Below, piece by piece: positions 2,243-16,540 of a stretch of DNA of 32,000 nt. Source of the stretch: Candidatus Saccharimonadota bacterium (GTDB lineage Bacteria; Patescibacteriota; Saccharimonadia; Saccharimonadales; Saccharimonadaceae); assembly GCF_025273655.1 (NCBI RefSeq), contig NZ_CP045921.1, positions 600,001 through 632,000 on the forward strand, written 5' to 3'. The position numbers and the translations under genes were made by a program. The notes beneath the pieces were generated by a model, which was given only the letters and a program-made list of their open reading frames with translations, was not told the origin of the DNA and made no database searches. Position 1 is the first letter of the stretch; each line of letters begins with the position of its first letter.

Positions 2243-2929
2243 TTACTGGTCTCCTACATTACGTGAATTGCTATGGATTCCATCTGAGTCGAAGTCTGAC
2301 GGTACGGGAAAACCAAAATCCTTAAACGATACGTCGCTCTCGATTTGGTTCCCCCATACGTCATAGCCGTGCTCTCGTCTCCGAGCGAACAGCTCTAACT
2401 TCCGGTTTGTACCGCTCCCTAAATGCCCAGATACTCTCTCGATGATCGGGTAAAGCTCCTCGGGCTTATGACTGTGATCTTGCAGTGGTGCAAACATCCA
2501 CGTCGGCTGCGAGCGGAAGCCTACGGGGGCTTTGCCTCGTGTGCCGAACAGGACATGCTCCGTGCTATTGCGCAGGTAGTTACCGAGCGTAAACCGAGGT
2601 TTACACCATGTCAGGATGCTGCGAGGCGTATAGCCCCACGCTTCCAAGACATCGTAGCCGTGGCGTAAGGTGGCATTTGTCACCCAGAGCCAGCAGTGAC
2701 TATTGTCGGCAGTGACGCTTTTGATCGCGTCACCCATATCCTTGATGTCGTCTAAGGTCATGAGATTGTAGTGCTTTTCAGCGCCACGTTTCTTACCTTT
2801 CTGCTCAACGTCCCATGGCGGGTCGGCAAGCAGAACGTCATACTTCGGACGAGGTTCCTGCGCTGCGGTAGTCGCAGTCGTTGTTAGGGTTGGTAGTGTT
2901 GCGTGTGACTGTTTCGTTATATTCGTCAC
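2243..2929 (-). CDS. MT-A70 family DNA N6-adenine methyltransferase (DPPW motif)
   Basis: The sequence LLADPPWDVEQKGKKRGAEKHYNLMTLDDI ... WLWVTN ... WGY ... TWCK ... EHVLFGTRGK matches the MT-A70 pattern. The start is GTG at 2929, preceded by GGAAAGGA 6 nt upstream. The TAA stop (2245-2243) lies 1 nt before the ATG of the coupling-protein gene, so the two are co-transcribed. Confidence 0.85.
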   Translation of the reverse strand: MTNITKQSHATLPTLTTTATTAAQEPRPKYDVLLADPPWDVEQKGKKRGAEKHYNLMTLDDIKDMGDAIKSVTADNSHCWLWVTNATLRHGYDVLEAWGYTPRSILTWCKPRFTLGNYLRNSTEHVLFGTRGKAPVGFRSQPTWMFAPLQDHSHKPEELYPIIERVSGHLGSGTNRKLELFARRREHGYDVWGNQIESDVSFKDFGFPVPSDFDSDGIHSNSRNVGDQ

Positions 2930-2997: not shown

Positions 2998-3951
2998 TCC
3001 TATTTCACTGTGTTTGACACTATTTATTAATCTTTTCTTACATAACGTTTTAAGCCGATGAGACACGACTAACAGATACGAGATGTTCGAAAAACATACC
3101 ACTTGCATACATCTTGAAAAGATGGTGCAATTTGGGTGAACTATGCGTCAAACAAGCCATTTGCATGGCTATTTTAATGACGTTACGCAAGGATGGATGT
3201 GGAACGACAGCTACTAACGAATTACAGAATTCTTGCTACAACATACGGTTCAGATGGAAAGGTATGGAGTTTTGTAGTCATACAAAAAGCTCCTCGATTA
3301 AGACGGAGCCGTGTTACAAAGTTTTATGTTGACCAACGTATGTTTTGTGGAAACAAAACGAGTCAGTGTGAATTAATTCGTGAGTAGGTAACTACTAGTC
3401 GTTTTCTACTTCGTCGGCTATATTAGCATAACCGTGATGAAAAAGCAAGAGCAATAGGCAAAAATGCGCTATATGTAGCGGTTTATGCAAGTATATTGCG
3501 CTATTTTAAGAGAACACCAGAAAGCTGCCTACTTACGATTACCTCTGTAAGTGGGGGTCTTAATCTGCAATGCATGATCTCTTTGATCAGTTCTGTATAT
3601 ATACCAATAAGTCTCTACTCTTGACGGCTCTGGTCAAGGACTACGGTATTTAGATGTCGATCTAATGTTCTAAACTCTACGTTCGGCCAGTCCACTCAAA
3701 TTGGTGCTTGTTTGATTACCGATATGTTCGCGACCCACACCCTGTCTGCGATACACAATGTCAATACTGATGATTGCTCAAGCACCTTTGGCGATCCATG
3801 CTGGAGTGGGCTTCACTCGTACCTTTACGGGGTATATCGCTGGGACGTGTCAATCTATTCGCATAATAGCGGAGGAGTGTTTGTGCATGCAAGCATGAGC
3901 GCGTATGAAATTTTATTAACAGAGGTCAATATGGCATTAGCCTCAAACAAA

Positions 3952-3978
3952 AAGCGACACTATATATCGGTGTCGCTT
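3952..3978 (-). terminator. Intrinsic terminator after gene 3992..4492
   Basis: A 9-bp stem AAGCGACAC / GTGTCGCTT has a 9-nt loop. On the minus strand it is followed by TTTTGTTTG. It starts 14 nt after the stop codon. Confidence 0.7.
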
Positions 3979-3991
3979 CATTGCTTTTAGC

Positions 3992-4492
3992 CTATCTCGT
4001 GTGTTTTATGAACATTTTCTGTAAATCATACGCATAGAATCTTTGTACTATTACCTCGTTGGCAAGCGTATTCTCTGCTTTGATATACCACATTGGGAAG
4101 AACCGTCTCGTCAATCGGTTGCTCAGTAGCTTGCTGTGACTGGGCGTGTAGATTGTAACCAAGCCGTATGGTGTCGGAAGTGACCAAACCACGTTGAGCG
4201 TATCGCCCCAGATATCTACGGTTGGCTCACCGACTATCGCTACGAGGTCACGGTATGGTCTGTGGAAGTGTTCAATACGGCATACCGTTCTCTTCGTTGA
4301 CGGTATGATACGCTTGATATACTCCTCAAGACGAAACTTTTCCATGTAGTCGCTGTAGTTTAGTGTAATATCTTGGACGACGCTCCGTGGCAAGGATGCT
4401 TTCGCTGCGACCTGTTTGAGATCATGCATGTCAGCCTGCACTTTGATGCGCACCTGTTCATACGCGATAAAGTTCTCCTTTGCTATATTCAT
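3992..4492 (-). CDS. Hypothetical protein, paralog B of a tandem pair
   Basis: 166-aa ORF with SD AAAGGAA upstream. Its N-terminus MNIAKENFIAYEQVRI...DMHD aligns with the neighbour 4735..5229. It has its own terminator. Confidence 0.6.
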   Translation of the reverse strand: MNIAKENFIAYEQVRIKVQADMHDLKQVAAKASLPRSVVQDITLNYSDYMEKFRLEEYIKRIIPSTKRTVCRIEHFHRPYRDLVAIVGEPTVDIWGDTLNVVWSLPTPYGLVTIYTPSHSKLLSNRLTRRFFPMWYIKAENTLANEVIVQRFYAYDLQKMFIKHTR

Positions 4493-4690
4493 ATAGGATT
4501 ATTCCTTTCTGAGCGAGGCGCTCCGAATTGTTAATGATCACTTAGTGCGATGTGTGTCGCTCGAAGCTAGGGATATAGTAGCGAGGAATGGAACAAATGT
4601 ACCGGATTGCGTGCATTATAGTTACTTCCGATGAGATGTGGCCGCATCTGTCGATCGCGTCATATTGATGCATTGTGCATACAAAACAAA

Positions 4691-4716
4691 AAGCGGCACC
4701 ATTGCTGATGCCACTT
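4691..4716 (-). terminator. Intrinsic terminator after gene 4735..5229
   Basis: Minus-strand RNA AAGUGGCA ... UGCCGCUU forms 8 bp including one G-U pair. It is followed by UUUGUUUUG. Confidence 0.55.
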
Positions 4717-4734
4717 CCTGTTTTTGTCCGATCG

Positions 4735-5229
4735 CTATCCTCCGATTCGTTCTTTGACGTAGTCATGAAGTGATGTCTGTATTTCTTTAAATACAGTCCT
4801 TCCGTGACCGCTGCCACCAATATGCCACTCCTTGATAGCTCGCACATCGAGTCCTTTATCTCCAAGGTAGGCTTTGCCGTCTTTGTAGTTGTAGATCGTT
4901 GCTATACCGTGTTCGGTTTCAACAATCCACTGCACATCCATCTTGTTCTCAGGCAGACGCGTGAATGGTTTGCCGTACACTGCCACGATATCTTCATAGC
5001 GTGCGAGGATAGAGCCGATGCCGTGCGTACCGCTTATTACTTTCGCCATGTCGGTATACTTTCGCTCATGGAGCCACTTTTTGTAAATACTGTAGTGCTC
5101 GATGATGTCCAAGATTACCTCACGAGATAGTCCGCTATACGCTTCGACTGCTCGCACGTCGAACATATTCGTGACACCGCTGATGCGAACATCTTCGTAT
5201 GCCTCGAAATCTTCTCGGGTTATTTCCAT
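4735..5229 (-). CDS. Hypothetical protein, paralog A of a tandem pair (N-terminal xxTNMFD-type small helical domain)
   Basis: 164-aa ORF with SD AAAGGAG 9 nt upstream. The sequence MEITREDFEAYEDVRISGVTNMFDVRAV has about 22 of its first 52 residues identical to paralog B. Confidence 0.6.
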   Translation of the reverse strand: MEITREDFEAYEDVRISGVTNMFDVRAVEAYSGLSREVILDIIEHYSIYKKWLHERKYTDMAKVISGTHGIGSILARYEDIVAVYGKPFTRLPENKMDVQWIVETEHGIATIYNYKDGKAYLGDKGLDVRAIKEWHIGGSGHGRTVFKEIQTSLHDYVKERIGG

Positions 5230-5380
5230 TGTTCATTACTCCTTTTCTAGAGCATAGATAGCTCTCGTTTGTTAATAGTTCACCAATGCGGAACGATGAA
5301 TGTCGTCCGTAGAGGATGAGGCTATACTAACGAGACAGCGCAAGGATGTAGAGGAAAACGTGAATAATGTTTACAGCCGA

Positions 5381-5410
5381 AAAGACAGCTCCGTATCTGG
5401 AGCTGTCTTT
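5381..5410 (-). terminator. Intrinsic terminator closing the methyltransferase-helicase-T5orf172 operon
   Basis: A perfect 12-bp stem AAAGACAGCTCC / GGAGCTGTCTTT has a 6-nt loop. It begins 18 nt after the stop at 5428 and has a U-tract on the minus strand. Confidence 0.7.
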
Positions 5411-5427
5411 GATTTTGGGCTATTTGT

Positions 5428-6585
5428 CTATGCATTGCGCAGGATGAGCTGTTCGAGGTCTTTATCATACTTGTACTCTGTTATGTCGCCATTTTGCAAC
5501 ATATTCACAGCCTGCTCGATAGCGATGAGCGGCACCGAGTACCATTCGCTTGGCGCATACTCTTGGCCGCTACGGTCTATGATCTTCAGGTCAACTTTCA
5601 CATCCGCAAAGATTCGATGGATGAAATGCTCAACTTTCTGTGTATTGTAGTCGCCCGTGATGATATAGCTGTCGACAACTTCCACGCCAGCCATGAGATA
5701 CGTCGGGTCGTTCTCGGCATCTTTGATACGCTCGGCAACAGTCGTAGAAGTAAAGCCAATTTTATGTAGATTCTTGATAGTTGTTATCTTCTCATCTTGG
5801 TTGCGTGAGCGAAGTACGTAAATGTGGCCAGCGATTGTATCGGCAGCATCGAGCTGTAGTTCACCGTTATAATCCGATGTCACTACGCAATAACCATCGT
5901 AGTAGAGTTGGCTCGAAAGCGAACGAAGATAGAGGTTTGATTCTGTGCCGTTCTCGTAAATCGCTCGGATACGGCTCTTCATGCGGCCATGTACCATCTT
6001 TTCTTCACCAATATCAGCGACGTAGAGCATCTGCCCGCCCGCCACAAAGTACGCTCCAGCTTTCAACTGTGTCACGCTCGTGAATCGCACCAGCTTAGCA
6101 GTGCGATCTCTCAAGCTTGCCTGCGTATCGGCAAACCCAGCTCGGAATGTATCGAAGTTATCGGCTCGCTTACGGGTTGCAATATCCTCAGGCGAAGCAC
6201 GCTGCACCACAGGCACATTTTTGACACGCAGAATATCATCACCGACACCATTGAATAGCCCGAATGTATCGTCGCTAAACAGCTCATCGATAGATTCCGG
6301 AGCTTCGGGCGTTTCGAGCAAGCCAAGGCTGTCAATAGGCTGCAATGCCTCACTTTTCGCTGCATCTGCACGTATGGAGTTGAGTCGAGCAGCTAGCCCT
6401 GCTTCAGAAATATCAACGGCTTCTAGCTCTGGCAATCGGTCGTTCTTCTCGACGAAATCAACAATCTGCTGGAATGATGCCGTGAGCCTATCGTCGGCCG
6501 TTGCGGCAACCTGCTTTTTAGGCGGTACGAAAAGCTGGCCGTCATCCGACTCAAAAAGCTGAACAAGATCGTCGGGCATCTCCAC
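5428..6585 (-). CDS. T5orf172 (GIY-YIG-clan) domain protein, putative nuclease/DNA-binding subunit
   Basis: The C-terminal half reads GHIYVLRSRNQ...LHKIGFTSTTVAERIKD...VEHFIHRIFADV...PSEWYSVPL, which is the T5orf172 pattern. The GTG start at 6585 overlaps the helicase TAG stop (TAGTG), with GAGGAA about 9 nt upstream. An alternative ATG lies at 6579. Confidence 0.8.
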   Translation of the reverse strand: MEMPDDLVQLFESDDGQLFVPPKKQVAATADDRLTASFQQIVDFVEKNDRLPELEAVDISEAGLAARLNSIRADAAKSEALQPIDSLGLLETPEAPESIDELFSDDTFGLFNGVGDDILRVKNVPVVQRASPEDIATRKRADNFDTFRAGFADTQASLRDRTAKLVRFTSVTQLKAGAYFVAGGQMLYVADIGEEKMVHGRMKSRIRAIYENGTESNLYLRSLSSQLYYDGYCVVTSDYNGELQLDAADTIAGHIYVLRSRNQDEKITTIKNLHKIGFTSTTVAERIKDAENDPTYLMAGVEVVDSYIITGDYNTQKVEHFIHRIFADVKVDLKIIDRSGQEYAPSEWYSVPLIAIEQAVNMLQNGDITEYKYDKDLEQLILRNA

Positions 6586-8564
6586 TATGCGTTATTCCTC
6601 TCTTTTTCTTGCTGCCACACGGTATAGCGTCGGGTCAGGTATGCTTGCGCATTAGCCAGTAGCTTCTCGTTCTTATCGGTTGCATTTAGCGCAGGATATT
6701 TGCCGTTATGAGCAATCACGAACGCCTTGATTTGTGGTACAAGTGCAAGGGCATCTTCGTCTGACATATCAATCCGAGAGCCAGCAATCGTATCTTGAAT
6801 AACACGAAACACATCTGCTCCCACTTTCTTGGATATCACCTCAAAGGCGTGCTGGAATGGATTGATCGAATCAATCAGGTCGATACTCAAATCATCAAGG
6901 TTTACAAAACTATTGGCCAGTGTAATGAACTTCTTGTCGCCCTCCTCGGTAACTTTCGTACCAGCAGATTTGAATGCCAGATTGCTCGCAAGATACTGAC
7001 GAGTTACCTCAACTTCTTCGTCAGAAAGCCCAGGAAGTTTCTCTCGGATAATCTTTGACTGGAGGTGCTTCATATATTCACCCGAGTGGCCGTTTGCGGC
7101 AGCACGCTGTATCTGCGTATCTTGCAGTACGGCTGCAGTCAAATCTTCTAGCTCAGTCGCAAGGATTTGTTTGACACGCTCGGTTGGTGGGTTTTTGAGG
7201 CCTTTGACGAACACCTCGCCAGCCTGTGCTTTTTGGTCTGGCGAGACACGAGGCTTGAATGTAAAGTTTGGTGCTAGCACTTGCTCCATCAGGAGTGAAG
7301 CGGTGATAGCTTTGAGCATATTATTCACCGACACTTGCACATCTTCGGTAGTGCCATTTGGCTGCACGATGAGGTTAGTAAACTGAGCGTGTGATTTATT
7401 GTAGCTATCACGGGTACAGCGGCCAATAATCTGCACGATTTCCGTCAAACTTGCACGGTAGCCAATCGTCAATGCTTGTTCACACCATGGCCAGTCAAAG
7501 CCCTCTTTTGCCATACCTAGTGCCACGATGATATCTACGCCATCAATATCTTCACGAGCCACCTCGCTGAGGTATTTGGTGATTCTGGCACGGTGCAGTG
7601 GGTCGTCATCGACGAGATTGGCGACCTTGCGTGTTATGCCATTTCCATCGAGGATATATTCGATACCTGTTTCGCTGTCTTGCGATTGCCATTCACCGAT
7701 ATGGCCGTAAATCTGCTCGACCTCCTCGTGTTTTCCAACCTGCGTTGATTCTTTTGAGTTGACGTTCGGAATGTGAATAATCGTCTTTTTGCTTGGGTCA
7801 AGCACCGCACTTAATGCACCATCATCAAGATAACTTCCTGTATAGAAATGGTAACCAATACCAAGTGTTTCGAGGTAGGTATAGCCATTCAGCTGCTCAT
7901 AGTAGGTATAGGTGACCTTATCAAACTCAGTTTCGTCCTCTGGCGTCAAAATCGGCACAGCATCGCCACGGAAGTACGAGCCGGTCATAGCGATTATCTG
8001 TACGTTAGTGCTATTCATCACTCGGTGTAGCAAATCACCAAGTCGGCTGTTATCGCTGACAGACACATGATGAAACTCGTCGATTGCCAGCACCGTGTCG
8101 TTAAACAGCTCGGTGTCCAGCTCTTCATTCTCAAACGCAAAGCGGAGCGTGGCATGCGTACATACCAATATCTTGCTATCATCCTGCATGAAGCGGACGA
8201 ACGATTTTACCTTGCTTTTATCATCGCCCGTACCGAGACAGAGGTTGTTGCGATCCTCGACTTCCCAGTTGGCGAAGAAGCCGTTATCTACGAGGTTTGT
8301 ATTACCGAATGATGAACCGATAGACTTTTCTGGCACGGCCACGATGACCTTTTTCTTGCCTTGGTGTATGAGCTTATCGAGGCCGATAAACATCAATGCT
8401 CGAGATTTACCAGACGCTGGCGGTGCTTTGATAAGCAAGTGATTGCTGGCACGTTTTTCAAACACCCGACACTGCATTTCTCGCATACCAAAGTTGTCGA
8501 TCTTGGTAGACTCACCGTTCTTCTCGTATTTTACGTCGATGATGTTGAGGGTTTCGCTGTTCAT
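6585..8564 (-). CDS. SF2 (ResIII/DEAD-DEAH-like) helicase
   Basis: Motif I is LLIKAPPASGKSRA, motif II AIDEFHHV, motif III AMTGSYF and motif VI QIIGRCTRD. I recognised no nuclease motif in the 220-aa C-terminal region. The ATG at 8564 lies 2 nt after the methyltransferase stop. Confidence 0.85.
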   Translation of the reverse strand: MNSETLNIIDVKYEKNGESTKIDNFGMREMQCRVFEKRASNHLLIKAPPASGKSRALMFIGLDKLIHQGKKKVIVAVPEKSIGSSFGNTNLVDNGFFANWEVEDRNNLCLGTGDDKSKVKSFVRFMQDDSKILVCTHATLRFAFENEELDTELFNDTVLAIDEFHHVSVSDNSRLGDLLHRVMNSTNVQIIAMTGSYFRGDAVPILTPEDETEFDKVTYTYYEQLNGYTYLETLGIGYHFYTGSYLDDGALSAVLDPSKKTIIHIPNVNSKESTQVGKHEEVEQIYGHIGEWQSQDSETGIEYILDGNGITRKVANLVDDDPLHRARITKYLSEVAREDIDGVDIIVALGMAKEGFDWPWCEQALTIGYRASLTEIVQIIGRCTRDSYNKSHAQFTNLIVQPNGTTEDVQVSVNNMLKAITASLLMEQVLAPNFTFKPRVSPDQKAQAGEVFVKGLKNPPTERVKQILATELEDLTAAVLQDTQIQRAAANGHSGEYMKHLQSKIIREKLPGLSDEEVEVTRQYLASNLAFKSAGTKVTEEGDKKFITLANSFVNLDDLSIDLIDSINPFQHAFEVISKKVGADVFRVIQDTIAGSRIDMSDEDALALVPQIKAFVIAHNGKYPALNATDKNEKLLANAQAYLTRRYTVWQQEKERNNA

Positions 8565-8566
8565 GG

Positions 8567-11377
8567 TTATTTCTTATCTTTCTCGGTGTTAGTCATCTGC
8601 TCGTAGAGGGCAAAGAGGTCGGCAAGGCGTTCTTCGTCAGAATTGTATGGCTTTTGGCGATACAATCGGTCGACGGCCACATCCAACTCTTCGTGGGCTT
8701 GTCGCAAGTCTTCGGGCATTTTGTCTGGGTCGTACATCTCGGCCAGCGTTTTCTCTGAGTGATTCTCACGAGCAAAGAGAACGCTGCGAGCTTTGGCGGT
8801 TAGTTCCTGTTTTTCGTGCTCGAGCAGTGGACGGAGTGGGAATGTATTGTAGACAACTGAAGCTGAATACCTAAGCCGTGTTTCTAGCTGGCCACCGACC
8901 GCTCGCACCCACGCCATGTGCATTTTTGAGCTAAGAATGCCGAGTAGCCATGGTTCGGCATCGTAGATAGCGAATGCAGCATTTGATACGACCGTTCCTT
9001 TTGGCAAGATACTCATAGGGATGTACTGTCTGCGCTCTGAAGATACGATAGGAGCTATCAAGCATTGCCTATCTTGATAGCGAATTTCGGCAAATCGCCA
9101 TGGCGTCGAGGCTAGCTTCTTGGTGCTAGCTCGCTTGCTATCCATACGCCACTCATATACTGCTTGGATCTTTTTGTTGAGTATCGGTATCTGCTTAGCT
9201 TCTTCGATATCCGCTTCGTTAATCCAGACGGCATACCGCTCAATGCCTCGTAGAAATTCCGCAGCACCGACAAACGGTTTGAGGAACTTCTCGGCATCTG
9301 GTGATGCCTTGAGGATATCCTTGTATTCGTTGAGTGATATTGTAAAGTGACCGTCATCGAGTGCGAAACTGCCATAGTCGAGAGATGGTATCGATGATAG
9401 TGGCTTAGAGCGTGACATCACAATCGTACTGCTGCCAGACGACAAGTATGCGTTGATATTGTCTACTTTTTGCCGAATACCGCCATTGTAGATATATTTA
9501 TCTTTTGAACTCTCCGAACCTATGCCGATAACGACAACCGTAACGCCTGCATTATTTCTGGCACTGTTCTGCCATTTGAATGATTGGTGAGCAAAAATAA
9601 TCTCGTGCTTTGTGTCGAATATGTACGACCATAGCAGCTCCACTTGCACGCCTTGAACGATGGAGTTGGTAGATATAATAGCAGCCCTGCATTTGTTACT
9701 ATCACCGATGTAGTCGGCCGCTTTTTTGAACCACACAGCAATATAATCAAGGTTTCCGTAGCCCTTAATATCACCAAGAACGAGCTGCATATCTTCTTTT
9801 TGAGCAGCGTCGAGCCACCTCGCACCTCCATATGGTGGATTACCGATAAGATAGATCTCGTCGTATTCTTCTTTTACGAGTTCTTGTTGCTCACTCTCGT
9901 TCTCAAACCCTATGAGTTCACTTTGCTGGCTGGCGGCACTTGGTATGCCAACGGCATGCGGCACATTCGAGCAGACATCGTTCCAGTCCAGCCGAGCGGC
10001 ATTGCCGTGGATGATATTCGCATTGTCTTTGAGCGGAATGAGCTTTATCTCTCGGCCGAACTGCTTCTCGAATTCGATGTTCATCTGATGCTTCGCAAGG
10101 TAGAGCGACAAGATGGCGATTTCGTGTGGGAAGTCGTCAATTTCGATGCCGTAGAAATTATCGAGTTTGATTTGCGAAGATAGCTTATTCTTCATACCTT
10201 CTTCGAGTAGGCTACCAAGGAGCAATCGCTCAATGATGGCATGTTCAATCTTACGCATTTCTTTGTAGGCAATAATCAGGAAATTACCACTACCACAGGC
10301 AGGGTCAAAGACCTTAATCTTGCTGATTCGCTCCCATAGACGGATGAGCTTGCTCGGGTTGTCATAGTGTTTGTCGAACTCCTCACGCAATTCATCGAGA
10401 AAGAGCGGCTCGATCGTTTTCATGATGTTTGGCACGCTAGTATAGTGCTGGCCGTGCGTGTGCCGCTGGTTTTCATCCACGATGCTCTGGAACATCGAGC
10501 CGAAGATATCGGGGTTGATTTCTGACCAGTTCAAGTTGCCGCAGTCGAGAATGAGTTTGCGAGCTTGGGCATTGAACTTTGGTATGCCGATGCTGTGCTT
10601 TTTGGTGTCAAAAATTGTACCGTTGACGTACGGAAACTTACTAAACGGACTGGTGAAGCTTGACTTATCTTCGGTATCGAGAGCGTCGAATAGCGTGCGG
10701 AGGAATGTATCGAGATCGCTGCCATCGGTCTGCGTGTAGTCCTTGATAGAGCCAGTAAAAATAGCCTTTTCATCATTACTAAATACCCGAGTATCCTCGG
10801 CAAAGAAGCAGAATAGTAAACGGCTAAAGAATACATTGAGGTCGTGACGGAAGTTAGCTTGTGGGTCAGCCAAGCGCTCGGCATTGAACTTCTCGATTTC
10901 AGAGTAGAGTTCTTGCATTTTGTCGGCCGCACGACGATCGGCAACGGCTTCAGTCTTTTCGTCGGTAATTTCATCACCCGTCCAGCCATAGAAAAAGTCA
11001 ACATCACGATCAATATCTCGCAGATTGATATCGAGGCGAGTATCTTTCTTGGTGTCGATAGCAACGAGCTTGTCGTAATCGGTAACAATGAGGTAGCGAG
11101 GGTTATAGCGAACAACCAGCGGATCTTGCTCTAGTTCTTCAAGAGTAGAGCGAAGCTTGCTTGAATCGGTGATGTGCCTGAAGTACACGACGCCACGCTG
11201 CAATACGTCGTTTTCTTTGTCGCTGGCAAGATTGAGTGAGCCTTGACGTAGCTTGGTGATGGCCGAACTCGCACGGCCATAGGCAGCCAGCAGCTCATAG
11301 AGGATGTCGATATTGTACGATTCACGATTGGCCAGTTCGGTAACGTTTCTCTGGACATCGGCAAAGGCAAGACGCAT
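8567..11377 (-). CDS. MmeI-family (Type IIL/IIG-like, gamma-class) N6-adenine DNA methyltransferase with built-in target-recognition region
   Basis: Motifs seen: LLFCFFAEDT, FPYVNGTIF, HGQHYTSVPNIMKTIEPLFLDEL, motif I FDPACGSGNFLI and motif IV GNPPYGG. The C-terminal segment YSASVVYNTFP...LAEMYDPDKMPEDLRQAHEELD matches my memory of MmeI. I chose the ATG at 11377 (MRLAFADVQ...), giving 936 aa. The 32 extra codons in the track ORF cover leader hairpins. Confidence 0.88.
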   Translation of the reverse strand: MRLAFADVQRNVTELANRESYNIDILYELLAAYGRASSAITKLRQGSLNLASDKENDVLQRGVVYFRHITDSSKLRSTLEELEQDPLVVRYNPRYLIVTDYDKLVAIDTKKDTRLDINLRDIDRDVDFFYGWTGDEITDEKTEAVADRRAADKMQELYSEIEKFNAERLADPQANFRHDLNVFFSRLLFCFFAEDTRVFSNDEKAIFTGSIKDYTQTDGSDLDTFLRTLFDALDTEDKSSFTSPFSKFPYVNGTIFDTKKHSIGIPKFNAQARKLILDCGNLNWSEINPDIFGSMFQSIVDENQRHTHGQHYTSVPNIMKTIEPLFLDELREEFDKHYDNPSKLIRLWERISKIKVFDPACGSGNFLIIAYKEMRKIEHAIIERLLLGSLLEEGMKNKLSSQIKLDNFYGIEIDDFPHEIAILSLYLAKHQMNIEFEKQFGREIKLIPLKDNANIIHGNAARLDWNDVCSNVPHAVGIPSAASQQSELIGFENESEQQELVKEEYDEIYLIGNPPYGGARWLDAAQKEDMQLVLGDIKGYGNLDYIAVWFKKAADYIGDSNKCRAAIISTNSIVQGVQVELLWSYIFDTKHEIIFAHQSFKWQNSARNNAGVTVVVIGIGSESSKDKYIYNGGIRQKVDNINAYLSSGSSTIVMSRSKPLSSIPSLDYGSFALDDGHFTISLNEYKDILKASPDAEKFLKPFVGAAEFLRGIERYAVWINEADIEEAKQIPILNKKIQAVYEWRMDSKRASTKKLASTPWRFAEIRYQDRQCLIAPIVSSERRQYIPMSILPKGTVVSNAAFAIYDAEPWLLGILSSKMHMAWVRAVGGQLETRLRYSASVVYNTFPLRPLLEHEKQELTAKARSVLFARENHSEKTLAEMYDPDKMPEDLRQAHEELDVAVDRLYRQKPYNSDEERLADLFALYEQMTNTEKDKK

Positions 11378-11466
11378 CAGCAGACACCCTCTGCAAACGC
11401 ATGATAATAGCAATAAGAAACTGACCTGTGAAGCGGCATAGTTTTGCGACCTTTCGTTTTCAGCCG

Positions 11467-11498
11467 CAAACAAAAATGCGACTATTTACTTAGTCGCA
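11467..11498 (-). terminator. Intrinsic terminator/attenuator in the leader of the methyltransferase operon
   Basis: On the minus strand, TGCGACTA (11498-11491), loop AGTAAA and TAGTCGCA (11484-11477) are followed by TTTTTGTTTG (11476-11467). This lies about 100 nt upstream of the ATG at 11377. Confidence 0.55.
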
Positions 11499-11548
11499 AA
11501 ACTACAATTTATTTTCCGAAGAAAGATAAAAAGCGTAAATAGCCGCAT
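11486..11548 (-). CDS. Candidate 20-codon leader mini-ORF (MRLFTLFIFLRKINCSFATK)
   Basis: A strong SD AAGGAAGG (11560-11553) lies 4 nt before the ATG at 11548. The TAA stop (11488-11486) sits in the loop of the terminator hairpin. The ORF is too short for the ORF track. Confidence 0.3.
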   Translation of the reverse strand: MRLFTLFIFLRKINCSFATK

Positions 11549-11593
11549 TTAGCCTTCCTTCAGAAAAATAAATCAAATAAATTGTAGTTTTGC
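11496..11593. repeat. Perfect 19-bp inverted repeat with a 60-bp spacer
   Basis: GCAAAACTACAATTTATTT (11496-11514) has its exact reverse complement at 11575-11593. The core TAGTTTTGC / GCAAAACTA also occurs at 11439-11447. Confidence 0.9.
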
Positions 11594-11599
11594 CTCTTT

Positions 11600-11608
11600 A
11601 TTATACCA
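11600..11608 (-). promoter_or_regulatory. Extended -10 promoter element (TGgTATAAT) for the methyltransferase operon leader
   Basis: The minus strand reads gaTGgTATAATaaagag, followed directly by the IR arm GCAAAAC at 11593. The -35 is weak. Confidence 0.45.
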
Positions 11609-11736
11609 TCATCTCCTCTGTATTTGTACGGTGCTGGCGATACTTATCTAAGTTTTTACATATCAACCCCTAGACTCTTGAGGTAAAGTATAATAAAAGA
11701 GCGAGGACGCCCCCTTGGGAATGGATAAGTGATAAA

Positions 11737-13971
11737 ATGTCGATAATCAAGAAAATAACTAAGCTAAAAAATCTAGGTATCTATACCAGTTTTAATTGGG
11801 ACACAAGTCTGCAAGAGCTAAAGCAATACAACGTCATTTACGGATGGAATGGCACAGGAAAGAGTACCTTCTCTAAGCTGCTCGGTGCATTGAATGTGGG
11901 CAACCATCCAGACTTTCCGTCTCTCGAGTATCAAGTACATGATAGTGATGGAAGTGTACACACCCACGGAACAGCTTTCGGCACCCCAATACGAGTCTTT
12001 AATACCGATTTTATTGCAGACAATATAGATTTCGACACTCTAAGCTCGAAGTCTATCACGGTAGTTCTAGGCAAAGAGAATAAGGCGGCACTCAAGGCTA
12101 TCGAAGAGGACGAAGCCGAGCTAGCTAGAACAAAGGAAGCTATCCGCACGAAAACTATCGAGAAAGAGGCCAAAGAGAAAGAGCGAGGCCTAGAATTTAC
12201 CACTGTCGCCAAAGTTATTGGTGCTGTGAGTCGAGGTGGCGTCGTGCGCACCTACAATAAAACTCACGCAGAGCAAGCCTTTGCAAGATTGTCTGACAAA
12301 GAATTGCTCGATGATACTGAGTTAGAAAAGCTAGTGTTGTCGGTTGCACAGCCATCTCTTCCTGAGCAGAAACAGATGTCGTTAGGCGAGACAAGCACTG
12401 ACCTGTCAGAAATTATTGACGAAGCCCATACCCTACTAGCTAAGACGGTATCGGCTAGTGTTATTGAGCGACTCAAAGAAAATGCGGATATTTCTGAATG
12501 GGTAGAAGCAGGCATCAAAGTGCATGCCGACCACGAAAGTAATACATGCGAATTCTGCGGTAACCCATTAGACACAGCAAGGCTAGCAGAGCTAACGGCA
12601 CATTTCAACGAAGCTGATGCAAAGTTAAAACTAGAGGTAGATGATCTTGCGAATAGATTAGTCACCGTATATAACATCATTAAAGATCTCAGCCCCGTCG
12701 ACAAAATGAATCTCTATCAAGAGTTTCATAGCGACTACGCAGAAAAAGTGGAAAGCCTGACAAGCGAACGTGATGCTTTGCTTGAGTCCATAAAGAAATT
12801 TGGTGAGCTCGTGCGATCCAAGAAGCTTCATACGACCGAAGAGCTTAGTATTGCGGAAACGCCCGACCTTACAAAAATCACTAGCTCCTTGGATGAAGTA
12901 AATAAAATTATTGCCAATCACAATAAAAAGACAAGCGACTTCCTCAACCAACAAAAGAATGATAGTGCTAAAATCGAAAACCACCACCTTAGCGGCATCT
13001 ATGACAAGGTCAATGGCCTGAAAGATCAGATTGAAGTACTGGATACCGAGATAGCTGTCCTGAAGGATGGAGATGAGAAAGTTACCGGACAAACTGAGCT
13101 ACTGTCTAGAATTGCAACAAATAAGAGCAAGGTCTCGTCAGAGCATAAGGCCTGCGAACTGCTCAATGTGTCGCTCAAGAAGTTTCTAGGTCACGACGAG
13201 ATAACATTTGCACCAAATACTGAAAGTGGCGATGACGCGGGCTATTTACTATTAAGGCGTGGCAACCCCGCGAAGAGCCTTAGTGAGGGCGAACGAACCG
13301 CAATCGCATTTGTATTTTTCGTAACACAGCTGCGAGACGATAGCTTCGATCCAAAGACCGGGATTATCGTTGTTGATGACCCAGTCTCTAGTCTCGACTC
13401 CAATTCACAGTATCAAGCGTTTTCATTTCTGAAAAAGGCCACCGAAGATGCGAGTCAGCTATTTATACTTACCCATAATTTCGACTTCTTGAAACTAGTA
13501 ACTAACTGGATTAAGCACTCTCGTAAAACGTTTGGTTTATTTATGGTGAAGAATAGCTTCTCTGAAGCGGACAGCACACGCACTGCGTACCTAGATAAAT
13601 TAGATAAAGCACTCGAAGAATTTGAAAGTGAATATCACTACTTATTCAATGTTGCCTACAAATACAAAGATGACGGCACTATAGCGAATGCCTATAAAAT
13701 GCCCAACATAGCTCGTAAGCTACTCGACAGCTTCTTGATGTTCCGAGTCCCAAAGAATACTAATACATTCAACCGCTTACAGGAAATAAGCTATGACGAA
13801 GAGAAAAAAGCATCTATCTATAAGTTCGCCAACGACCAGTCGCATATTACAGGCTCTGGTTTTGACCCCTCTTTGGTACCCGAGGCCAAAAATTGCATAA
13901 CCGACTTGCTTGACATGATGAAGGCAGTTGACCCCGACCACTTTAGATACCTAGAGGAAACCATATCTTAA
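11737..13971 (+). CDS. AAA_13 / RloC-PrrC-like ABC-type ATPase with coiled-coil CxxC insert and anticodon-nuclease-like C-terminal domain
   Basis: Motifs seen: Walker A GWNGTGKST, signature LSEGERTAIAF and Walker B/D-loop GIIVVDDPVSSLDS. About 400 aa of coiled coil separates Walker A from the signature and contains CEFCGNPL. The C-terminus reads NIARKLLDSFLMFRVP ... ANDQSHITG, resembling the PrrC/RloC R..E..H region. Confidence 0.75.
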   Translation: MSIIKKITKLKNLGIYTSFNWDTSLQELKQYNVIYGWNGTGKSTFSKLLGALNVGNHPDFPSLEYQVHDSDGSVHTHGTAFGTPIRVFNTDFIADNIDFDTLSSKSITVVLGKENKAALKAIEEDEAELARTKEAIRTKTIEKEAKEKERGLEFTTVAKVIGAVSRGGVVRTYNKTHAEQAFARLSDKELLDDTELEKLVLSVAQPSLPEQKQMSLGETSTDLSEIIDEAHTLLAKTVSASVIERLKENADISEWVEAGIKVHADHESNTCEFCGNPLDTARLAELTAHFNEADAKLKLEVDDLANRLVTVYNIIKDLSPVDKMNLYQEFHSDYAEKVESLTSERDALLESIKKFGELVRSKKLHTTEELSIAETPDLTKITSSLDEVNKIIANHNKKTSDFLNQQKNDSAKIENHHLSGIYDKVNGLKDQIEVLDTEIAVLKDGDEKVTGQTELLSRIATNKSKVSSEHKACELLNVSLKKFLGHDEITFAPNTESGDDAGYLLLRRGNPAKSLSEGERTAIAFVFFVTQLRDDSFDPKTGIIVVDDPVSSLDSNSQYQAFSFLKKATEDASQLFILTHNFDFLKLVTNWIKHSRKTFGLFMVKNSFSEADSTRTAYLDKLDKALEEFESEYHYLFNVAYKYKDDGTIANAYKMPNIARKLLDSFLMFRVPKNTNTFNRLQEISYDEEKKASIYKFANDQSHITGSGFDPSLVPEAKNCITDLLDMMKAVDPDHFRYLEETIS

Positions 13972-14024
13972 GACTACGATCTTAAACTGGCTTTGTATCT
14001 TTTATTACAAAAAGGCTTTGCGAA

Positions 14025-14507
14025 TTACTGGCAATCTTTTGCATATCCCGCATCAAGTGCTTCTTCTGGCGTAGCGAACCGCAGTTTCTCAGGATAGTCG
14101 GCTGGATATGGCGTGTAACTCTGTTCGTTGCTAAGGTAGCCAACGAGTACCGTACAATTACTACCATCTGATGTGTGGTAGACAGTTTTTCCGTCATCAA
14201 ACAACACTACTCCGTCGATCTTGAGGCTGTGCGCTCTTGTCCAATCAAGGATTGCTGCATCTTTCGGCACTCCACAACGTTCAGCGGCTGACGCTTCGAC
14301 ATTGCCTTGCTCTACAAACTCCGATGTAGCAACATCAGAAATGTCGGCAAGCTGACATGATGCCTTTGGTGTGGTGGTTGAGGCAGTATTCTTGGTTGCT
14401 GTGCTGCTTGGTCGATTCACGATATAGATACTACCTGCGATACCCGTCAGTAGGATAATCGCGACAACTATACCAATAACTCGCGGATTCTTGATGTTTA
14501 CATTCAT
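14025..14507 (-). CDS. Signal-anchored / secreted protein of unknown function (4 Cys)
   Basis: It has an N-terminal TM segment VIGIVVAIILLTGIAGSIYIV, a Thr/Ser-rich linker, then a roughly 110-aa domain. It starts 3 nt after the stop of the upstream gene. Confidence 0.6.
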   Translation of the reverse strand: MNVNIKNPRVIGIVVAIILLTGIAGSIYIVNRPSSTATKNTASTTTPKASCQLADISDVATSEFVEQGNVEASAAERCGVPKDAAILDWTRAHSLKIDGVVLFDDGKTVYHTSDGSNCTVLVGYLSNEQSYTPYPADYPEKLRFATPEEALDAGYAKDCQ

Positions 14508-14510
14508 TCC

Positions 14511-15416
14511 TTATTCTGTCTCTTCCTGTGCTTTTACAAACTGCACTATCGCATCACCGTTCATATTTCCGTATGCTTTTACTCCCTCACCAATCGTTGC
14601 TAGATAAATATTTTTTGTATAGTCGCTATACGCCACGACATAACCCGTAGGCTTTTTGAGTAGCTCGACGATCCTGCTCGCAGCATCTTCTTTCACGACA
14701 GTGGAGTTGTCAGCGCTCCAGATGATACCGCCATATTCAAGCGTCGCACCTACGTCCATTCTGTTATCTATTCCATTACCACACTCGGTCTTCAGGGTCG
14801 CTTTCAGACCTGCCATTGTGGTATACATCTGACTTGGCACGCCATCGTCACCATCGTTGAAATCCGCGCTTGAAAGTGGGGTATCATATAGCCTCATATT
14901 CTTTAGTTCCCAGCCAGGACTGTAAAGAGTGTCTATCCCACCAAGAAGCTGTTTCAGCTCTGTGCTAACCGGCTCCGCATAAACGGGCAGTACGGACATA
15001 TTCACGAGACACGGTGCTTTTTTGCCCGATGTCGTATTTGTGATCTTCACGCTGTAAACAGGCATAGTTGCTTTACTAATTCCTACATACCCCGGCTTGC
15101 CTTCGCTAGAATCAATTGTAGCGTCAACATCGCCCACTTCGTACTCTATGTCATAGCTATAGCCACTGACATCTGTAAATGAGAGCTTATCTATCTTTGG
15201 CTTCTCATCGAAAGTATCGTCACGAGGTGAGTTTGCTTCGCCATCATGGTACGTTGTCTCGCTTTGGTCTGGTGTCGCTTGAGACTGCGAGGACGATGGG
15301 CTACTCCACGAAATTTGCGTCAGAATAATACCGACCACAGTCGCAATAATTAATCCGGTAGCAACTTGCTTTTTATGTTCTTCTATCCAGATACTGAGTA
15401 GTTGTAAATTCATCAT
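14511..15416 (-). CDS. Signal-anchored protein of unknown function
   Basis: SD AAAGGAA lies upstream of ATGATG. It has an N-terminal TM segment VATGLIIATVVGIILTQI, a Ser/Gln-rich linker, then a roughly 230-aa domain with no motif I recognise. Confidence 0.6.
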   Translation of the reverse strand: MMNLQLLSIWIEEHKKQVATGLIIATVVGIILTQISWSSPSSSQSQATPDQSETTYHDGEANSPRDDTFDEKPKIDKLSFTDVSGYSYDIEYEVGDVDATIDSSEGKPGYVGISKATMPVYSVKITNTTSGKKAPCLVNMSVLPVYAEPVSTELKQLLGGIDTLYSPGWELKNMRLYDTPLSSADFNDGDDGVPSQMYTTMAGLKATLKTECGNGIDNRMDVGATLEYGGIIWSADNSTVVKEDAASRIVELLKKPTGYVVAYSDYTKNIYLATIGEGVKAYGNMNGDAIVQFVKAQEETE

Positions 15417-15434
15417 TGTATTCCTTTTTATTAC

Positions 15435-16142: not shown

Positions 16143-16342
16143 GCCTTCCTCCGCAAGCATTAAATAGTTGGTAGAGCGGAGGTCGGATATAAAAAACGAC
16201 AACCATTCTAGGTTGTCTAGGCCAAGTAAAACGAGTCAAGCTCATTTAACGTTTCGAATGGTTGCCGTTATCTTAAACTTGACAACCAAAGCTATGATTC
16301 TTTGGCGAATCGTTTTACTTTTACCTAGACGTTCTCAGTATA
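16143..16342 (-). promoter_or_regulatory. Structured 5' leader (riboswitch-like or attenuator-like) of the membrane-protein operon, including a -10 TATACT
   Basis: See the finding for 16143-16342. The leader contains nested helices P0-P3, an intrinsic terminator, a duplicated UGGUUGUC 8-mer able to form an antiterminator, and an anti-SD/SD hairpin. Confidence 0.45.
16189..16217 (-). terminator. Intrinsic terminator inside the leader, 47 nt upstream of the ATG at 16142
   Basis: On the minus strand, GACAACC (16217-16211), loop UAGAAU and GGUUGUC (16204-16198) are followed by GUUUUUUAU. Confidence 0.65.
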
Positions 16343-16484
16343 CCGTACTATCTGGTAAAAATCACCACATCTGGCCGAATCTACCTCAGATTATCTAAAG
16401 AATTTCTCATAACTCGTGCGTCAAGCGTTACTGCGCTACACGAACATGCAAAAACAAAAGAGCGCCTCCGCACTCTATAGCAAA

Positions 16485-16540
16485 GAAGGTTCGTGCTTTC
16501 TCGCAGATATGGAGCAAGCACGAACCTTCCTTTTGCATTG
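16485..16540. terminator. Strong hairpin, probable bidirectional terminator/insulator
   Basis: A perfect 14-bp stem GAAGGTTCGTGCTT (16485-16498) / AAGCACGAACCTTC (16516-16529) has a 17-nt loop. It is followed by CTTTTGCATTG on the plus strand and TTTGCTAT on the minus strand. Confidence 0.55.

What the first reader, a model, noticed from the sequence alone, without database searches (positions are those of the whole stretch)
5428..11377. Translationally coupled MmeI-family methyltransferase + SF2 helicase + T5orf172/GIY-YIG-like protein: a split, non-canonical restriction or BREX-like defence module
Seen in sequence:
- Three minus-strand genes are packed with almost no spacing. The junctions are TAA-CC-ATG at 8567/8564 and an overlapping TAGTG at 6585.
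- They share one leader (11378-11608) and one terminator (5381-5410), so they form a single operon.
- Gene 1 is clearly MmeI-family: HYTSVPNIMKTIEPLFLDEL, DPACGSGNFLI, NPPYGG and an MmeI-like C-terminus.
- Where I remember MmeI carrying its D...ExK nuclease triad, this protein reads ...QRGVVYFRHITDSSKLRS.... I cannot see a D...ExK there.
- Gene 2 is a ResIII-like helicase (ASGKS, DEFHH, QIIGRCTRD) with no nuclease motif that I can recognise.
- Gene 3 carries a T5orf172 domain, which belongs to the GIY-YIG clan.

Inference: methylation with target recognition, translocation and cleavage may be split over three proteins. That arrangement does not fit the known classes:
- Type I: there is no HsdS or HsdR.
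- Type III: Mod is beta-class and Res carries its own nuclease.
- Type IIL: that is a single polypeptide.
- BREX: there is no PglZ, BrxC or BrxL.

I faintly recall helicase-methylase-ATPase trios being reported. I cannot tell whether this is one of them.
Basis: partly seen in the sequence, partly recalled or inferred. Interest (0 to 1): 0.85.

Follow-up and report, generated by a model that had tools for sequence, protein, structure and literature searches.

The report
Known YeeA-YeeB-YeeC split restriction-like operon
This is an intact copy, in a Saccharibacteria chromosome, of a three-gene DNA-defence-type operon (nuclease-dead MmeI-like methyltransferase, helicase, GIY-YIG nuclease) that was first described in 2009 as the Bacillus subtilis YeeA/DnmA-YeeB-YeeC cluster, so it is real but not a new kind of system.

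Summary
Three intact minus-strand genes are packed together, with a 2-nt gap and a 1-nt overlap:
- an MmeI-like methyltransferase with a fused target recognition domain (TRD), 8567-11377
- an SF2 helicase, 6585-8564
- a T5orf172/GIY-YIG protein, 5428-6585

A strong terminator hairpin follows at 5381-5410.

A profile alignment to MmeI (PDB 5HR4) shows the PD-ExK site is gone. E80 is replaced by R and K82 by I, and these positions vary across the family.

The same trio, in the same order, occurs in:
- Saccharibacteria and Succinivibrionaceae genomes
- plasmids of Bacillus, Arthrobacter, Klebsiella, Vibrio, Acetobacter and Ligilactobacillus
- a Burkholderia island

This arrangement is already published. 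Morgan et al. 2009 described MmeI homologues that lack the nuclease motif and are "invariably" followed by a YeeB-like helicase and a YeeC-like GIY-YIG protein. They proposed the same split, Type-I-like mechanism. DnmA (YeeA) is a proven m6A methyltransferase. yeeAB protects Vibrio crassostreae from some phages. B. subtilis shows no restriction.

Added here:
- purifying selection on the helicase
- a swapped TRD cassette between near-identical loci
- a neighbouring RloC-like gene

Verdict: a new member of a known but mechanistically uncharacterised kind. Interest is modest.

The parts
8567..11377 (-). Gene 1: YeeA/DnmA-type MmeI-like N6-adenine DNA methyltransferase with fused target recognition domain (936 aa)
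   Evidence: All five MmeI Pfam domains match. PADLOC REase_MTase_IIG scores 9e-287. PDB MmeI 5HR4 scores 3.6e-175 with the single sequence and 6e-274 with the family profile.
10889..11332 (-). Degenerate MmeI_N domain (aa 16-163): retains the family fold signature but has no PD-ExK catalytic site. Inferred to be a docking or communication module.
   Evidence: Pfam MmeI_N scores 2.9e-16. The N-terminal 164 aa alone find nothing in the PDB. Residues conserved across phyla include L30, A32, R44, N49, R94, D108 and F128-F129.
11171..11212 (-). Site equivalent to MmeI D70...E80-x-K82. It reads NDVLQRGVVYFRHI (D, then R and I in place of E and K).
   Evidence: Profile alignment to 5HR4. Family alignment shows E80 replaced by R/K/Q/F/A and K82 by I/V/N/T.
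10277..10306 (-). SAM-binding motif I, DPACGSGNFL
   Evidence: Invariant across eight diverse homologues.
9830..9841 (-). Catalytic motif IV, NPPY
   Evidence: N513, P514 and P515 are invariant.
8831..9436 (-). Target recognition domain (aa 648-849). It lies inside a recombined segment (about 8940-9830) that is only 51-61% identical in DNA to the otherwise near-identical locus L001.
   Evidence: Pfam MmeI_TRD scores 6e-72. Sliding-window identity between the window and L001.
6585..8564 (-). Gene 2: YeeB-type SF2 helicase/translocase (659 aa). Motifs are I PPASGKS (8403-8423), II DEFHH (8067-8081), III MTGSYFRGD (7962-7988) and VI QIIGRCTRD (7407-7433). No nuclease domain.
   Evidence: Pfam DEAD and ResIII. 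All motifs are invariant in ten homologues from five phyla. dN/dS is 0.022 against L001. The fold search returns generic SF2 helicases only, from a low-confidence model.
5428..6585 (-). Gene 3: YeeC-type protein (385 aa). It has an N-terminal helical region, a disordered linker, a small beta-barrel middle domain and a C-terminal T5orf172/GIY-YIG-like domain.
   Evidence: Pfam T5orf172 1.1e-9 and MUG113 1.4e-10. AF2 model with mean pLDDT 73. Full-length homologues form 330 clusters (50% identity level) at E<=1e-30.
5500..5829 (-). T5orf172/GIY-YIG-like core (aa 253-362): G253-x-x-Y256 (GHIYVL), K275-I-G277 (HKIGFT), R286, E319/H323 and P345-x-E347-W348
   Evidence: These residues are invariant or nearly invariant in 10 diverse and in 63 sequences. 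NCBI annotates the plasmid homologues as GIY-YIG nuclease family proteins.
5381..5410 (-). Terminator-like hairpin after gene 3 (12-bp stem, then TTTTC)
   Evidence: Fold energy -25.6 kcal/mol, z = -6.6. Sequence.
11404..11432 (-). Candidate sigma-70-type promoter (TTCACA-17-TG-TATTAT) about 27 nt upstream of the gene 1 ATG
   Evidence: Best hit of the consensus scan, 10 of 12 matches. Not statistically distinguishable from chance.

Best explanation
The locus is an intact member of the YeeA(DnmA)-YeeB-YeeC family. I read it as a three-subunit, ATP-dependent, Type-I/ISP-like restriction-modification module.

Shown here
- The MmeI-like subunit keeps intact SAM-binding and NPPY motifs and a fused target recognition domain. 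Its N-terminal PD-ExK site is destroyed.
- The helicase keeps every SF2 motor motif.
- The third protein keeps the GIY-YIG-type core residues.
- The three genes are tightly packed and syntenic across phyla.

Inferred
- The methyltransferase recognises a short asymmetric site and methylates one adenine on one strand, as MmeI and DnmA (GACGmAG) do.
- At unmodified sites its degenerate N-terminal domain recruits or licenses the YeeB motor. The motor translocates on the DNA using ATP.
- The YeeC GIY-YIG nuclease makes the cut, probably away from the site.
- Because recognition resides in the methyltransferase, losing it disarms the system rather than poisoning the cell.
- Specificity diversifies by swapping the recognition-domain cassette.
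For: Domain content and motifs
-.

Loss of ExK
-.

Conserved gene order methyltransferase -> helicase -> GIY-YIG
- All 9 genome loci that can be evaluated, covering Saccharibacteria and Succinivibrionaceae.
- 6 of the 7 plasmid loci inspected, plus an IS-disrupted remnant in the seventh.
- A Burkholderia integrative island and a metagenome contig.
- 227 plasmids carry a gene 3 homologue.

Selection and recombination
- Helicase dN/dS is 0.022 at dS of about 1.
- Cross-phylum identity is 46-59% for the helicase, 40-49% for the methyltransferase and 30-44% for gene 3.
- The recognition-domain segment was replaced between two otherwise 99-100% identical loci, as expected for a specificity under arms-race selection.

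Genomic setting
- The locus sits in a low-GC island next to tRNA-Leu, together with other defence-type genes: nSTAND3-Mrr (PADLOC PDC-S73) and an RloC-like AAA_13 protein (PADLOC PDC-S06).

Literature
- The same hypothesis appears in PMC2731913.
- DnmA is necessary and sufficient for m6A at GACGAG (PMC7261158).
- yeeAB mediates resistance to one phage subclade in V. crassostreae (bioRxiv 10.1101/2021.05.05.442762).
Against: - No biochemical demonstration of cleavage or translocation exists for any family member.
- YeeA and a Moraxella homologue had no endonuclease activity alone.
- In B. subtilis the cluster restricted neither plasmid transformation nor three phages, and the DnmA motif is not depleted in phage genomes.
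- T5orf172 catalysis is inferred from motif conservation only. My fold search of the gene 3 model gave no significant PDB match.
- The helicase model was low confidence and matched SF2 helicases generically.
- I could not compare directly with the B. subtilis prototype sequences.
Confidence: 0.62

Rival explanations
1. The methyltransferase acts as a functionally orphan epigenetic enzyme. The helicase and GIY-YIG genes are a non-functional relic of a former restriction system, as Fernandez et al. concluded for B. subtilis.
For: B. subtilis dnmA, yeeB and yeeC deletions have no phage or transformation phenotype, and DnmA methylation tunes promoter activity. One Saccharibacteria genome (L005, CP064992) carries fragmented methyltransferase and helicase genes.
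Against: Here all three ORFs are intact and every catalytic motif is present. The helicase is under strong purifying selection, with dN/dS 0.022. The trio is kept in the same order on mobile elements across phyla. yeeAB protects Vibrio. The mBio authors themselves note that B. subtilis YeeB and YeeC lack C-terminal stretches.
Confidence: 0.12
2. The trio is a methylation-keyed defence or exclusion system that does not work by classical double-strand cleavage. It might instead nick DNA, block replication as BREX does, or cause abortive infection.
For: The DnmA motif is not avoided by Bacillus phages. Protection in Vibrio is limited to one phage subclade. No cleavage has ever been shown. GIY-YIG enzymes are often nickases (established knowledge of the superfamily).
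Against: Nothing here separates this from the best explanation. The architecture of recognition/methyltransferase subunit, SF2 motor and nuclease is that of the translocating restriction enzymes. No BREX, Pgl or abortive-infection effector is part of the conserved trio.
Confidence: 0.18
3. Gene 1 is an ordinary single-chain Type IIL (MmeI-type) restriction-modification enzyme, and the two downstream genes are unrelated neighbours.
For: Full-length MmeI architecture and a top PADLOC hit to 'Type IIG restriction enzyme-methyltransferase'.
Against: E80 and K82 of MmeI are replaced by R and I, and these positions are not conserved in the family. The downstream genes are syntenic in every locus examined. 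Morgan et al. found no endonuclease activity for two members of this subgroup.
Confidence: 0.02
4. The divergent AAA_13 (RloC-like) gene at 11737-13971 is an obligatory fourth component, making this a helicase-methylase-ATPase type system.
For: The gene is adjacent and divergently transcribed in the window and in L001. PrrC-type anticodon nucleases are classically coupled to Type I systems (PMC2610378).
Against: The gene is absent from the other eight genome loci and from all inspected plasmid, Burkholderia and metagenome loci that carry the trio. PADLOC treats it as the candidate family PDC-S06.
Confidence: 0.05

Closest known systems
YeeA(DnmA)-YeeB-YeeC cluster of Bacillus subtilis and its homologues (Morgan et al. 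2009 'second group of MmeI homologs'; Nye 2020; Fernandez 2023; Piel 2021)
   Same: MmeI-like methyltransferase with fused recognition domain and no PD-ExK motif, followed directly by a DEAD-type SF2 helicase and then a T5orf172/GIY-YIG protein, in the same order. Carried on horizontally acquired DNA.
   Different: The host is a Saccharibacteria chromosome. The recognition domain is different, so the specificity is unknown and presumably different. Direct identity to the B. subtilis proteins could not be measured. The nearest Bacillus plasmid trio is 42%, 59% and 36% identical.
MmeI / Type IIL restriction-modification enzymes (PDB 5HR4)
   Same: Same domain order (N domain, helical spacer, gamma-class N6A methyltransferase, recognition domain, C domain). 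The family profile aligns over MmeI residues 26-904.
   Different: The catalytic E80 and K82 are lost, and D70 falls at a variable position or insertion. Two extra subunits (an ATP-dependent motor and a GIY-YIG nuclease) are conserved partners.
Type ISP enzymes LlaGI/LlaBIII
   Same: Nuclease, SF2 motor, adenine methyltransferase and recognition domain acting on asymmetric sites. This is a plausible mechanistic analogue (translocation then cleavage).
   Different: Type ISP enzymes are single polypeptides with an Mrr (PD-ExK) nuclease. Here there are three polypeptides and a GIY-YIG-type nuclease. No sequence match to solved ISP structures was found.
Type I restriction-modification (HsdM/HsdS/HsdR)
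   Same: Separate subunits. The ATP motor is separate from the methyltransferase, and restriction presumably depends on the methyltransferase/recognition subunit.
   Different: There is no HsdS or HsdR. The recognition domain is fused (though split off in the Succinivibrionaceae variants). The nuclease is a separate GIY-YIG protein rather than the PD-ExK domain of HsdR. Hemimethylation is expected.
BREX PglX/BrxX and MANTIS (Gao_RL) MtsC
   Same: Related gamma-class methyltransferases that hemimethylate asymmetric 6-bp sites. MANTIS pairs one with a helicase-nuclease effector.
   Different: No PglZ, BrxC or BrxL, and no MtsA or MtsB type ATPases. PglX models score far below their cut-offs. The MANTIS paper does not mention MmeI, YeeB or GIY-YIG.

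Membership tests
YeeA(DnmA)-YeeB-YeeC cluster | MmeI homologue that is similar to MmeI along its length except for about the first 100 residues | tested here: met
   phmmer aligns the protein to MmeI only from MmeI residue 104 onwards. The N-terminal 164 aa alone find nothing in the PDB. The family profile aligns MmeI residues 26-904.
YeeA(DnmA)-YeeB-YeeC cluster | No PD-ExK motif at the positions of MmeI D70/E80/K82 | tested here: met
   E80 is replaced by R and K82 by I. Both positions vary across eight homologues.
YeeA(DnmA)-YeeB-YeeC cluster | A DEAD-type SF2 helicase gene immediately downstream (position +1) | tested here: met
   2-nt spacer. Pfam DEAD and ResIII. Same position in all loci examined.
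YeeA(DnmA)-YeeB-YeeC cluster | A conserved T5orf172/GIY-YIG protein at position +2 | tested here: met
   1-nt overlap. Pfam T5orf172 and MUG113. Conserved core residues.
YeeA(DnmA)-YeeB-YeeC cluster | Direct sequence homology to the B. subtilis prototypes YeeB and YeeC | not tested
   No B. subtilis sequence was retrievable. A search seeded with a Bacillus plasmid homologue did not list YeeC among its best 120 hits. Indirect link: gene 3 is 38% identical to the A. baumannii pABTJ1 gene of a transposon structure whose genes the literature names YeeB and YeeC (PMC3691203).
YeeA(DnmA)-YeeB-YeeC cluster | m6A methylation of one strand of an asymmetric site | not testable with these tools
   Motif I and NPPY are intact. 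A methylome is needed.
Type IIL (MmeI family proper) | A single polypeptide carrying an active PD-ExK nuclease | tested here: not met
Type I restriction-modification | HsdS specificity subunit and HsdR (PD-ExK plus SF2) subunit | tested here: not met
   No such Pfam or PADLOC hits among the window ORFs of 120 aa or more that were scanned. MTase_I models match only weakly, around 1e-6.
Type ISP (LlaGI/LlaBIII) | One polypeptide with Mrr nuclease, helicase, methyltransferase and recognition domain | tested here: not met
   Three separate ORFs. No Mrr domain in the trio.
BREX | PglX scoring above the family cut-off, plus PglZ and BrxC | tested here: not met
   BREX-1 PglX scores 36 bits against a cut-off of 500. 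No PglZ, BrxC or BrxL in the window.
DISARM class 1 | DrmMI together with DrmA, DrmB, DrmC and DrmD | tested here: not met
   Only a partial DrmMI match to the C-terminal half, 3.5e-39. No partner genes.
Type III restriction-modification | Beta-class Mod plus Res (SF2 with a C-terminal PD-ExK) | tested here: not met
   The methyltransferase is a gamma-class MmeI type, with motif I before NPPY. The helicase has no nuclease domain.

The most novel reading that the evidence does not exclude
The YeeA-YeeB-YeeC family may be a distinct type of ATP-dependent restriction enzyme that has never been reconstituted biochemically: a hemimethylating MmeI-like methyltransferase/recognition subunit, a separate SF2 motor, and a separate GIY-YIG cutter. 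In this Saccharibacteria lineage it would diversify by recognition-domain cassette exchange. It might also be backed up by the divergently transcribed RloC-like anticodon nuclease, which would sense its inactivation in the way PrrC guards EcoprrI.
Probability: 0.12. Interest if true: 0.6.

Novelty: new member of a known kind. Interest (0 to 1): 0.3.

Why it matters
- The family is widespread. Gene 3 has about 330 full-length homologue clusters at the 50% identity level. It occurs on 227 plasmids, including Klebsiella and Acinetobacter resistance plasmids. Thousands of Saccharibacteria variants exist.
- It is absent as a system from the two curated libraries searched here (PADLOC v2, NCBIfam), and its mechanism has never been reconstituted.
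- Recognising it prevents mis-annotation as an active 'Type IIG/IIL restriction enzyme'.
- For Saccharibacteria it flags a likely barrier to DNA uptake and genetic manipulation.
- It does not open a new question. The hypothesis has been in print since 2009.

Tried and rejected
- A PDB sequence search with the methyltransferase N-terminus alone found no MmeI match. A family profile was needed.
- The fold search of the gene 3 model gave only weak matches (E > 1e-3) of its middle beta-barrel to eIF5A, EF-P and Tudor-like folds, and no GIY-YIG hit.
- The helicase model was poor (pLDDT 62) and matched SF2 helicases generically (Pol theta, Hel308, Brr2, HsdR and others), so no subfamily could be assigned.
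- Megablast against E. coli genomes found nothing.
- An attempt to pull B. subtilis YeeC by name, through a search seeded with a Bacillus plasmid homologue, failed.
- The journal version of Piel et al. is not held, so I used the preprint.
- MANTIS/Gao_RL was considered and rejected as a different four-gene system.
- Hma-type trios were rejected. From my own knowledge PADLOC contains Hma models, and none appeared among the helicase hits.
- A search for att-like direct repeats of the tRNA-Leu end, to bound the island, found nothing convincing.
- The AAA_13 gene was rejected as a fourth component because it is not linked elsewhere.

Full report
**Observation**

The window holds three intact minus-strand ORFs at 8567-11377 (936 aa from the ATG at 11377), 6585-8564 (659 aa) and 5428-6585 (385 aa). 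The first junction is TAA-CC-ATG. At the second, the helicase stop TAG shares a base with a GTG start, and an in-frame ATG lies two codons further on.

After gene 3 there is a 12-bp hairpin at 5381-5410 followed by TTTTC. It folds at -25.6 kcal/mol, z = -6.6 against shuffles.

Upstream of gene 1, 11378-11736 is a divergent intergenic region shared with a plus-strand gene. One sigma-70-like site with an extended -10 lies at 11432-11404. Promoter-like hits here are no more frequent than in shuffled sequence. The single-operon reading therefore rests on the gene packing and the terminator, not on a demonstrated promoter.

**Identity of the three proteins**

- **Gene 1** matches all five MmeI domains in Pfam, including MmeI_N (2.9e-16). 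It also matches PADLOC's 'Type IIG REase-MTase' (9e-287) and the solved MmeI structure 5HR4.
- **Gene 2** matches only DEAD and ResIII. It has weak C-terminal similarity to PbeA/DndH-type helicases.
- **Gene 3** matches T5orf172 and MUG113 at residues 253-362, and nothing in PADLOC or NCBIfam.

**The nuclease site**

The N-terminal 164 residues alone find nothing in the PDB. A profile of eight diverse family members aligns MmeI from residue 26 to 904.

In that alignment MmeI D70 sits in an insertion next to a variable family column. This protein has Asp there; other members have E, I, H or A. MmeI E80 aligns with R (K, Q, F or A in other members). K82 aligns with I (V, N or T in others). The ExK half of the PD-ExK site is therefore absent across the family.

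The SAM motif DPACGSGNFL and NPPY are invariant. The N-terminal domain still has residues conserved across phyla, so it is retained for some non-catalytic role.

**Helicase and GIY-YIG protein**

All SF2 motifs are invariant in ten homologues from Saccharibacteria, Bacillota, Actinomycetota, Alpha- and Gammaproteobacteria: PPASGKS, VPExSIG, DEFHH, MTGSYFRGD, MAKEGFDWP and QIIGRxTRD. No nuclease domain is present.

In gene 3 the residues expected of a GIY-YIG/T5orf172 core are invariant or nearly so in 10 diverse and in 63 sequences: G253/Y256, K275-I-G277, R286, E319/H323 and E347-W348. Assigning R286 and E347 as the catalytic Arg and metal-binding Glu rests on general knowledge of the GIY-YIG superfamily, not on a test here.

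The AlphaFold model of gene 3 (pLDDT 73) shows a helical N-terminus, a disordered linker (about 93-135), a small beta-barrel (about 160-236) and the C-terminal domain. Its PDB fold search gave nothing significant. The helicase model was poor (pLDDT 62) and matched SF2 helicases generically.

**Co-localisation**

A scan of one genome per species with the helicase returned ten loci. Six are Saccharibacteria or related metagenome-assembled genomes with 84-96% identity in the helicase. Four are Succinivibrionaceae or Anaerobiospirillum, with best-segment identities of 42-53%. All nine loci long enough to judge have methyltransferase, helicase and T5orf172 genes in that order.

Gene 3 has homologues on 227 plasmids. 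Six of the seven plasmid loci inspected carry the same trio with short or overlapping junctions: Bacillus, Arthrobacter, Klebsiella pMET-1, Vibrio parahaemolyticus, Ligilactobacillus and Acetobacter. In the seventh, A. baumannii pABTJ1, an ISAba1 insertion has truncated it. A Burkholderia orbicola integrative island and a metagenome contig show the same arrangement.

Full-length gene 3 homologues form 330 clusters at the 50% identity level with E<=1e-30. Named hits reach Planctomycetes, Bdellovibrionales and Methanosarcina.

**Prior literature**

- **Morgan et al. 2009** (PMC2731913) split MmeI homologues into two groups. The second group lacks the PD-ExK motif and differs in the first 100 residues. 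[quoted passage not shown] The authors speculated that the MmeI-like subunit gives specificity and protective modification, while its altered N-terminus contacts separate helicase and endonuclease subunits, 'similar to type I R-M systems' but with single-strand modification. YeeA and a Moraxella homologue showed no endonuclease activity on their own.
- **Nye et al. 2020** (PMC7261158) showed that YeeA/DnmA makes m6A at GACGAG and found no restriction of transformation.
- **Fernandez et al. 2023** (PMC9973331) surveyed DnmA neighbourhoods. They found helicase at +1 and T5orf172/GIY-YIG at +2, saw no phage protection in B. subtilis, and called the cluster a relic there.
- **Piel et al. 2021** (bioRxiv 10.1101/2021.05.05.442762) found that yeeAB mediates resistance to one phage subclade in Vibrio crassostreae.
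- Further full-text searches found no later mechanistic characterisation or system name. MANTIS/Gao_RL is a different four-gene system.

**What this analysis adds**

1. *The operon here is not a relic.* Every ORF and motif is intact. The helicase has dN/dS 0.022 at dS of about 1 against L001. Cross-phylum identity is highest for the helicase (46-59%), then the methyltransferase (40-49%), then gene 3 (30-44%).
2. *Mosaic structure.* The window and L001 are 99-100% identical in DNA over gene 3 and part of the flanking genes. They are about 80% identical over the 5' part of the helicase gene and most of the methyltransferase gene. Over window 8940-9830 they are only 51-61% identical. That segment covers methyltransferase residues about 516-812, from NPPY through most of the recognition domain. 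This is a recombinational swap of the specificity cassette, the pattern expected for a restriction specificity under selection.
3. *Genomic context.* The locus lies in a low-GC stretch (about 3000-22000) ending at tRNA-Leu (21316-21400). Core genes (RsmD-like, RecG, TyrRS, PBP1) lie to the right. The island also carries an nSTAND3-Mrr gene (PADLOC PDC-S73) and a DUF2779 gene.

**Neighbour**

The divergent gene at 11737-13971 is an AAA_13 protein (PADLOC PDC-S06, 8e-236; PrrC model 1.2e-7). It has a Walker A motif, a CXXC (CEFC, residues 271-274), an ABC signature, and R660-x3-D664-x38-SH703. This matches the RloC/PrrC anticodon-nuclease pattern Arg-x3-Glu-x36-52-His, with Asp in place of Glu (PMC2610378). 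It is linked to the trio only in L001, so it is not part of the conserved system. Functional coupling of the PrrC-EcoprrI kind is possible but unsupported.

**Mechanism and verdict**

The best-supported reading is the published one: a three-subunit, ATP-dependent, Type-I/ISP-like restriction-modification module.

- *Shown:* domain content, loss of ExK, intact motifs, synteny, purifying selection and the recognition-domain swap.
- *Taken from the literature:* m6A activity of DnmA and protection in Vibrio.
- *Inferred:* hemimethylation of an asymmetric site here, recruitment of the motor through the dead N-domain, and cutting by the GIY-YIG subunit.

The negative B. subtilis results keep the relic and non-cleaving alternatives alive.

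The locus fails the defining tests for Type IIL proper, Type I, Type ISP, Type III, BREX and DISARM. It meets four of the six listed features of the YeeA-YeeB-YeeC cluster. Direct comparison with the B. subtilis prototype sequences could not be run, and strand-specific m6A methylation cannot be tested with these tools.

It is a new member of a known, under-studied kind.

Noticed in passing
window 11737-13971 (+): The divergent neighbour is an AAA_13 / PADLOC PDC-S06 protein with RloC hallmarks. It has a Walker A motif (aa 36-43), a CXXC 'CEFC' (aa 271-274; 12547-12558), an LSEGE signature, and R660-x3-D664-x38-SH703 (13714-13845). This matches the RloC/PrrC anticodon-nuclease triad pattern, with Asp in place of Glu. 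It is linked to the trio only in L001.
   Followed up: partly
L007 3701-6642; L008 5296-9324; L009 5613-9874: In Succinivibrionaceae/Anaerobiospirillum versions of the trio, the methyltransferase is split into a core ORF (676-689 aa) and a separate recognition-domain/C-terminal ORF. L008 and L009 each carry two such recognition-domain ORFs before the helicase. This is an even more Type-I-like layout, with a separate and possibly alternative specificity subunit. The gene 3 homologues there are also longer (536-556 aa).
   Followed up: partly
window 5428-14000 versus L001 4400-13300: Mosaic relationship between two Saccharibacteria loci. Gene 3 has dS 0.023, the helicase has dS of about 1, and the recognition-domain segment is about 52% identical in DNA. 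The recombination breakpoints fall inside the helicase gene and inside the neighbouring AAA_13 gene.
   Followed up: partly
L005 7214-11954 (CP064992.1, complete Saccharibacteria genome): The methyltransferase and helicase genes of the trio are broken into several fragments while gene 3 is intact. This looks like a decaying copy.
   Followed up: no
window 3992-4492 and 4735-5229 (-): Two paralogous small ORFs (166 and 164 aa, about 31% identical to each other) lie directly downstream of the trio's terminator. They are conserved in L001. There is only a sub-threshold DUF5049 hit and no defence-library hit. Function unknown.
   Followed up: no
window 18863-21157 (-) and 21316-21400 (-): An Mrr_cat + nSTAND3 NTPase gene (PADLOC candidate PDC-S73, 9e-132) lies directly beside tRNA-Leu at the edge of the low-GC island. 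No integrase and no att-like repeat was found within the window.
   Followed up: partly
window 17349-18842 (-); L003 16517-17986; L005 16484-17950; L006 16529-17995: A DUF2779 protein lies within a few kb of the trio in four Saccharibacteria loci, but on different sides. It could be a conserved flank of the same hotspot or a loosely associated gene.
   Followed up: no
window 2243-2929 (-): An MT-A70-family DNA methyltransferase gene (PADLOC MTase_II, 4e-42) with no obvious cognate nuclease gene next to it. Also present in L001.
   Followed up: no
window 6585-8564 (helicase family as a whole): The protein database holds at least 8000 helicase relatives (E <= 1e-5). The best 120 are all at least 75% identical, and the few that carry an organism name are all Saccharibacteria/Patescibacteria. 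The system appears very common in this reduced-genome lineage.
   Followed up: partly
L015 (A. baumannii pABTJ1) 4385-8189: A remnant of the trio (truncated helicase and a gene 3 homologue) sits beside ISAba1 in the blaOXA-23 region that the literature describes as Tn2009, a structure whose genes are listed there as YeeB and YeeC.
   Followed up: partly
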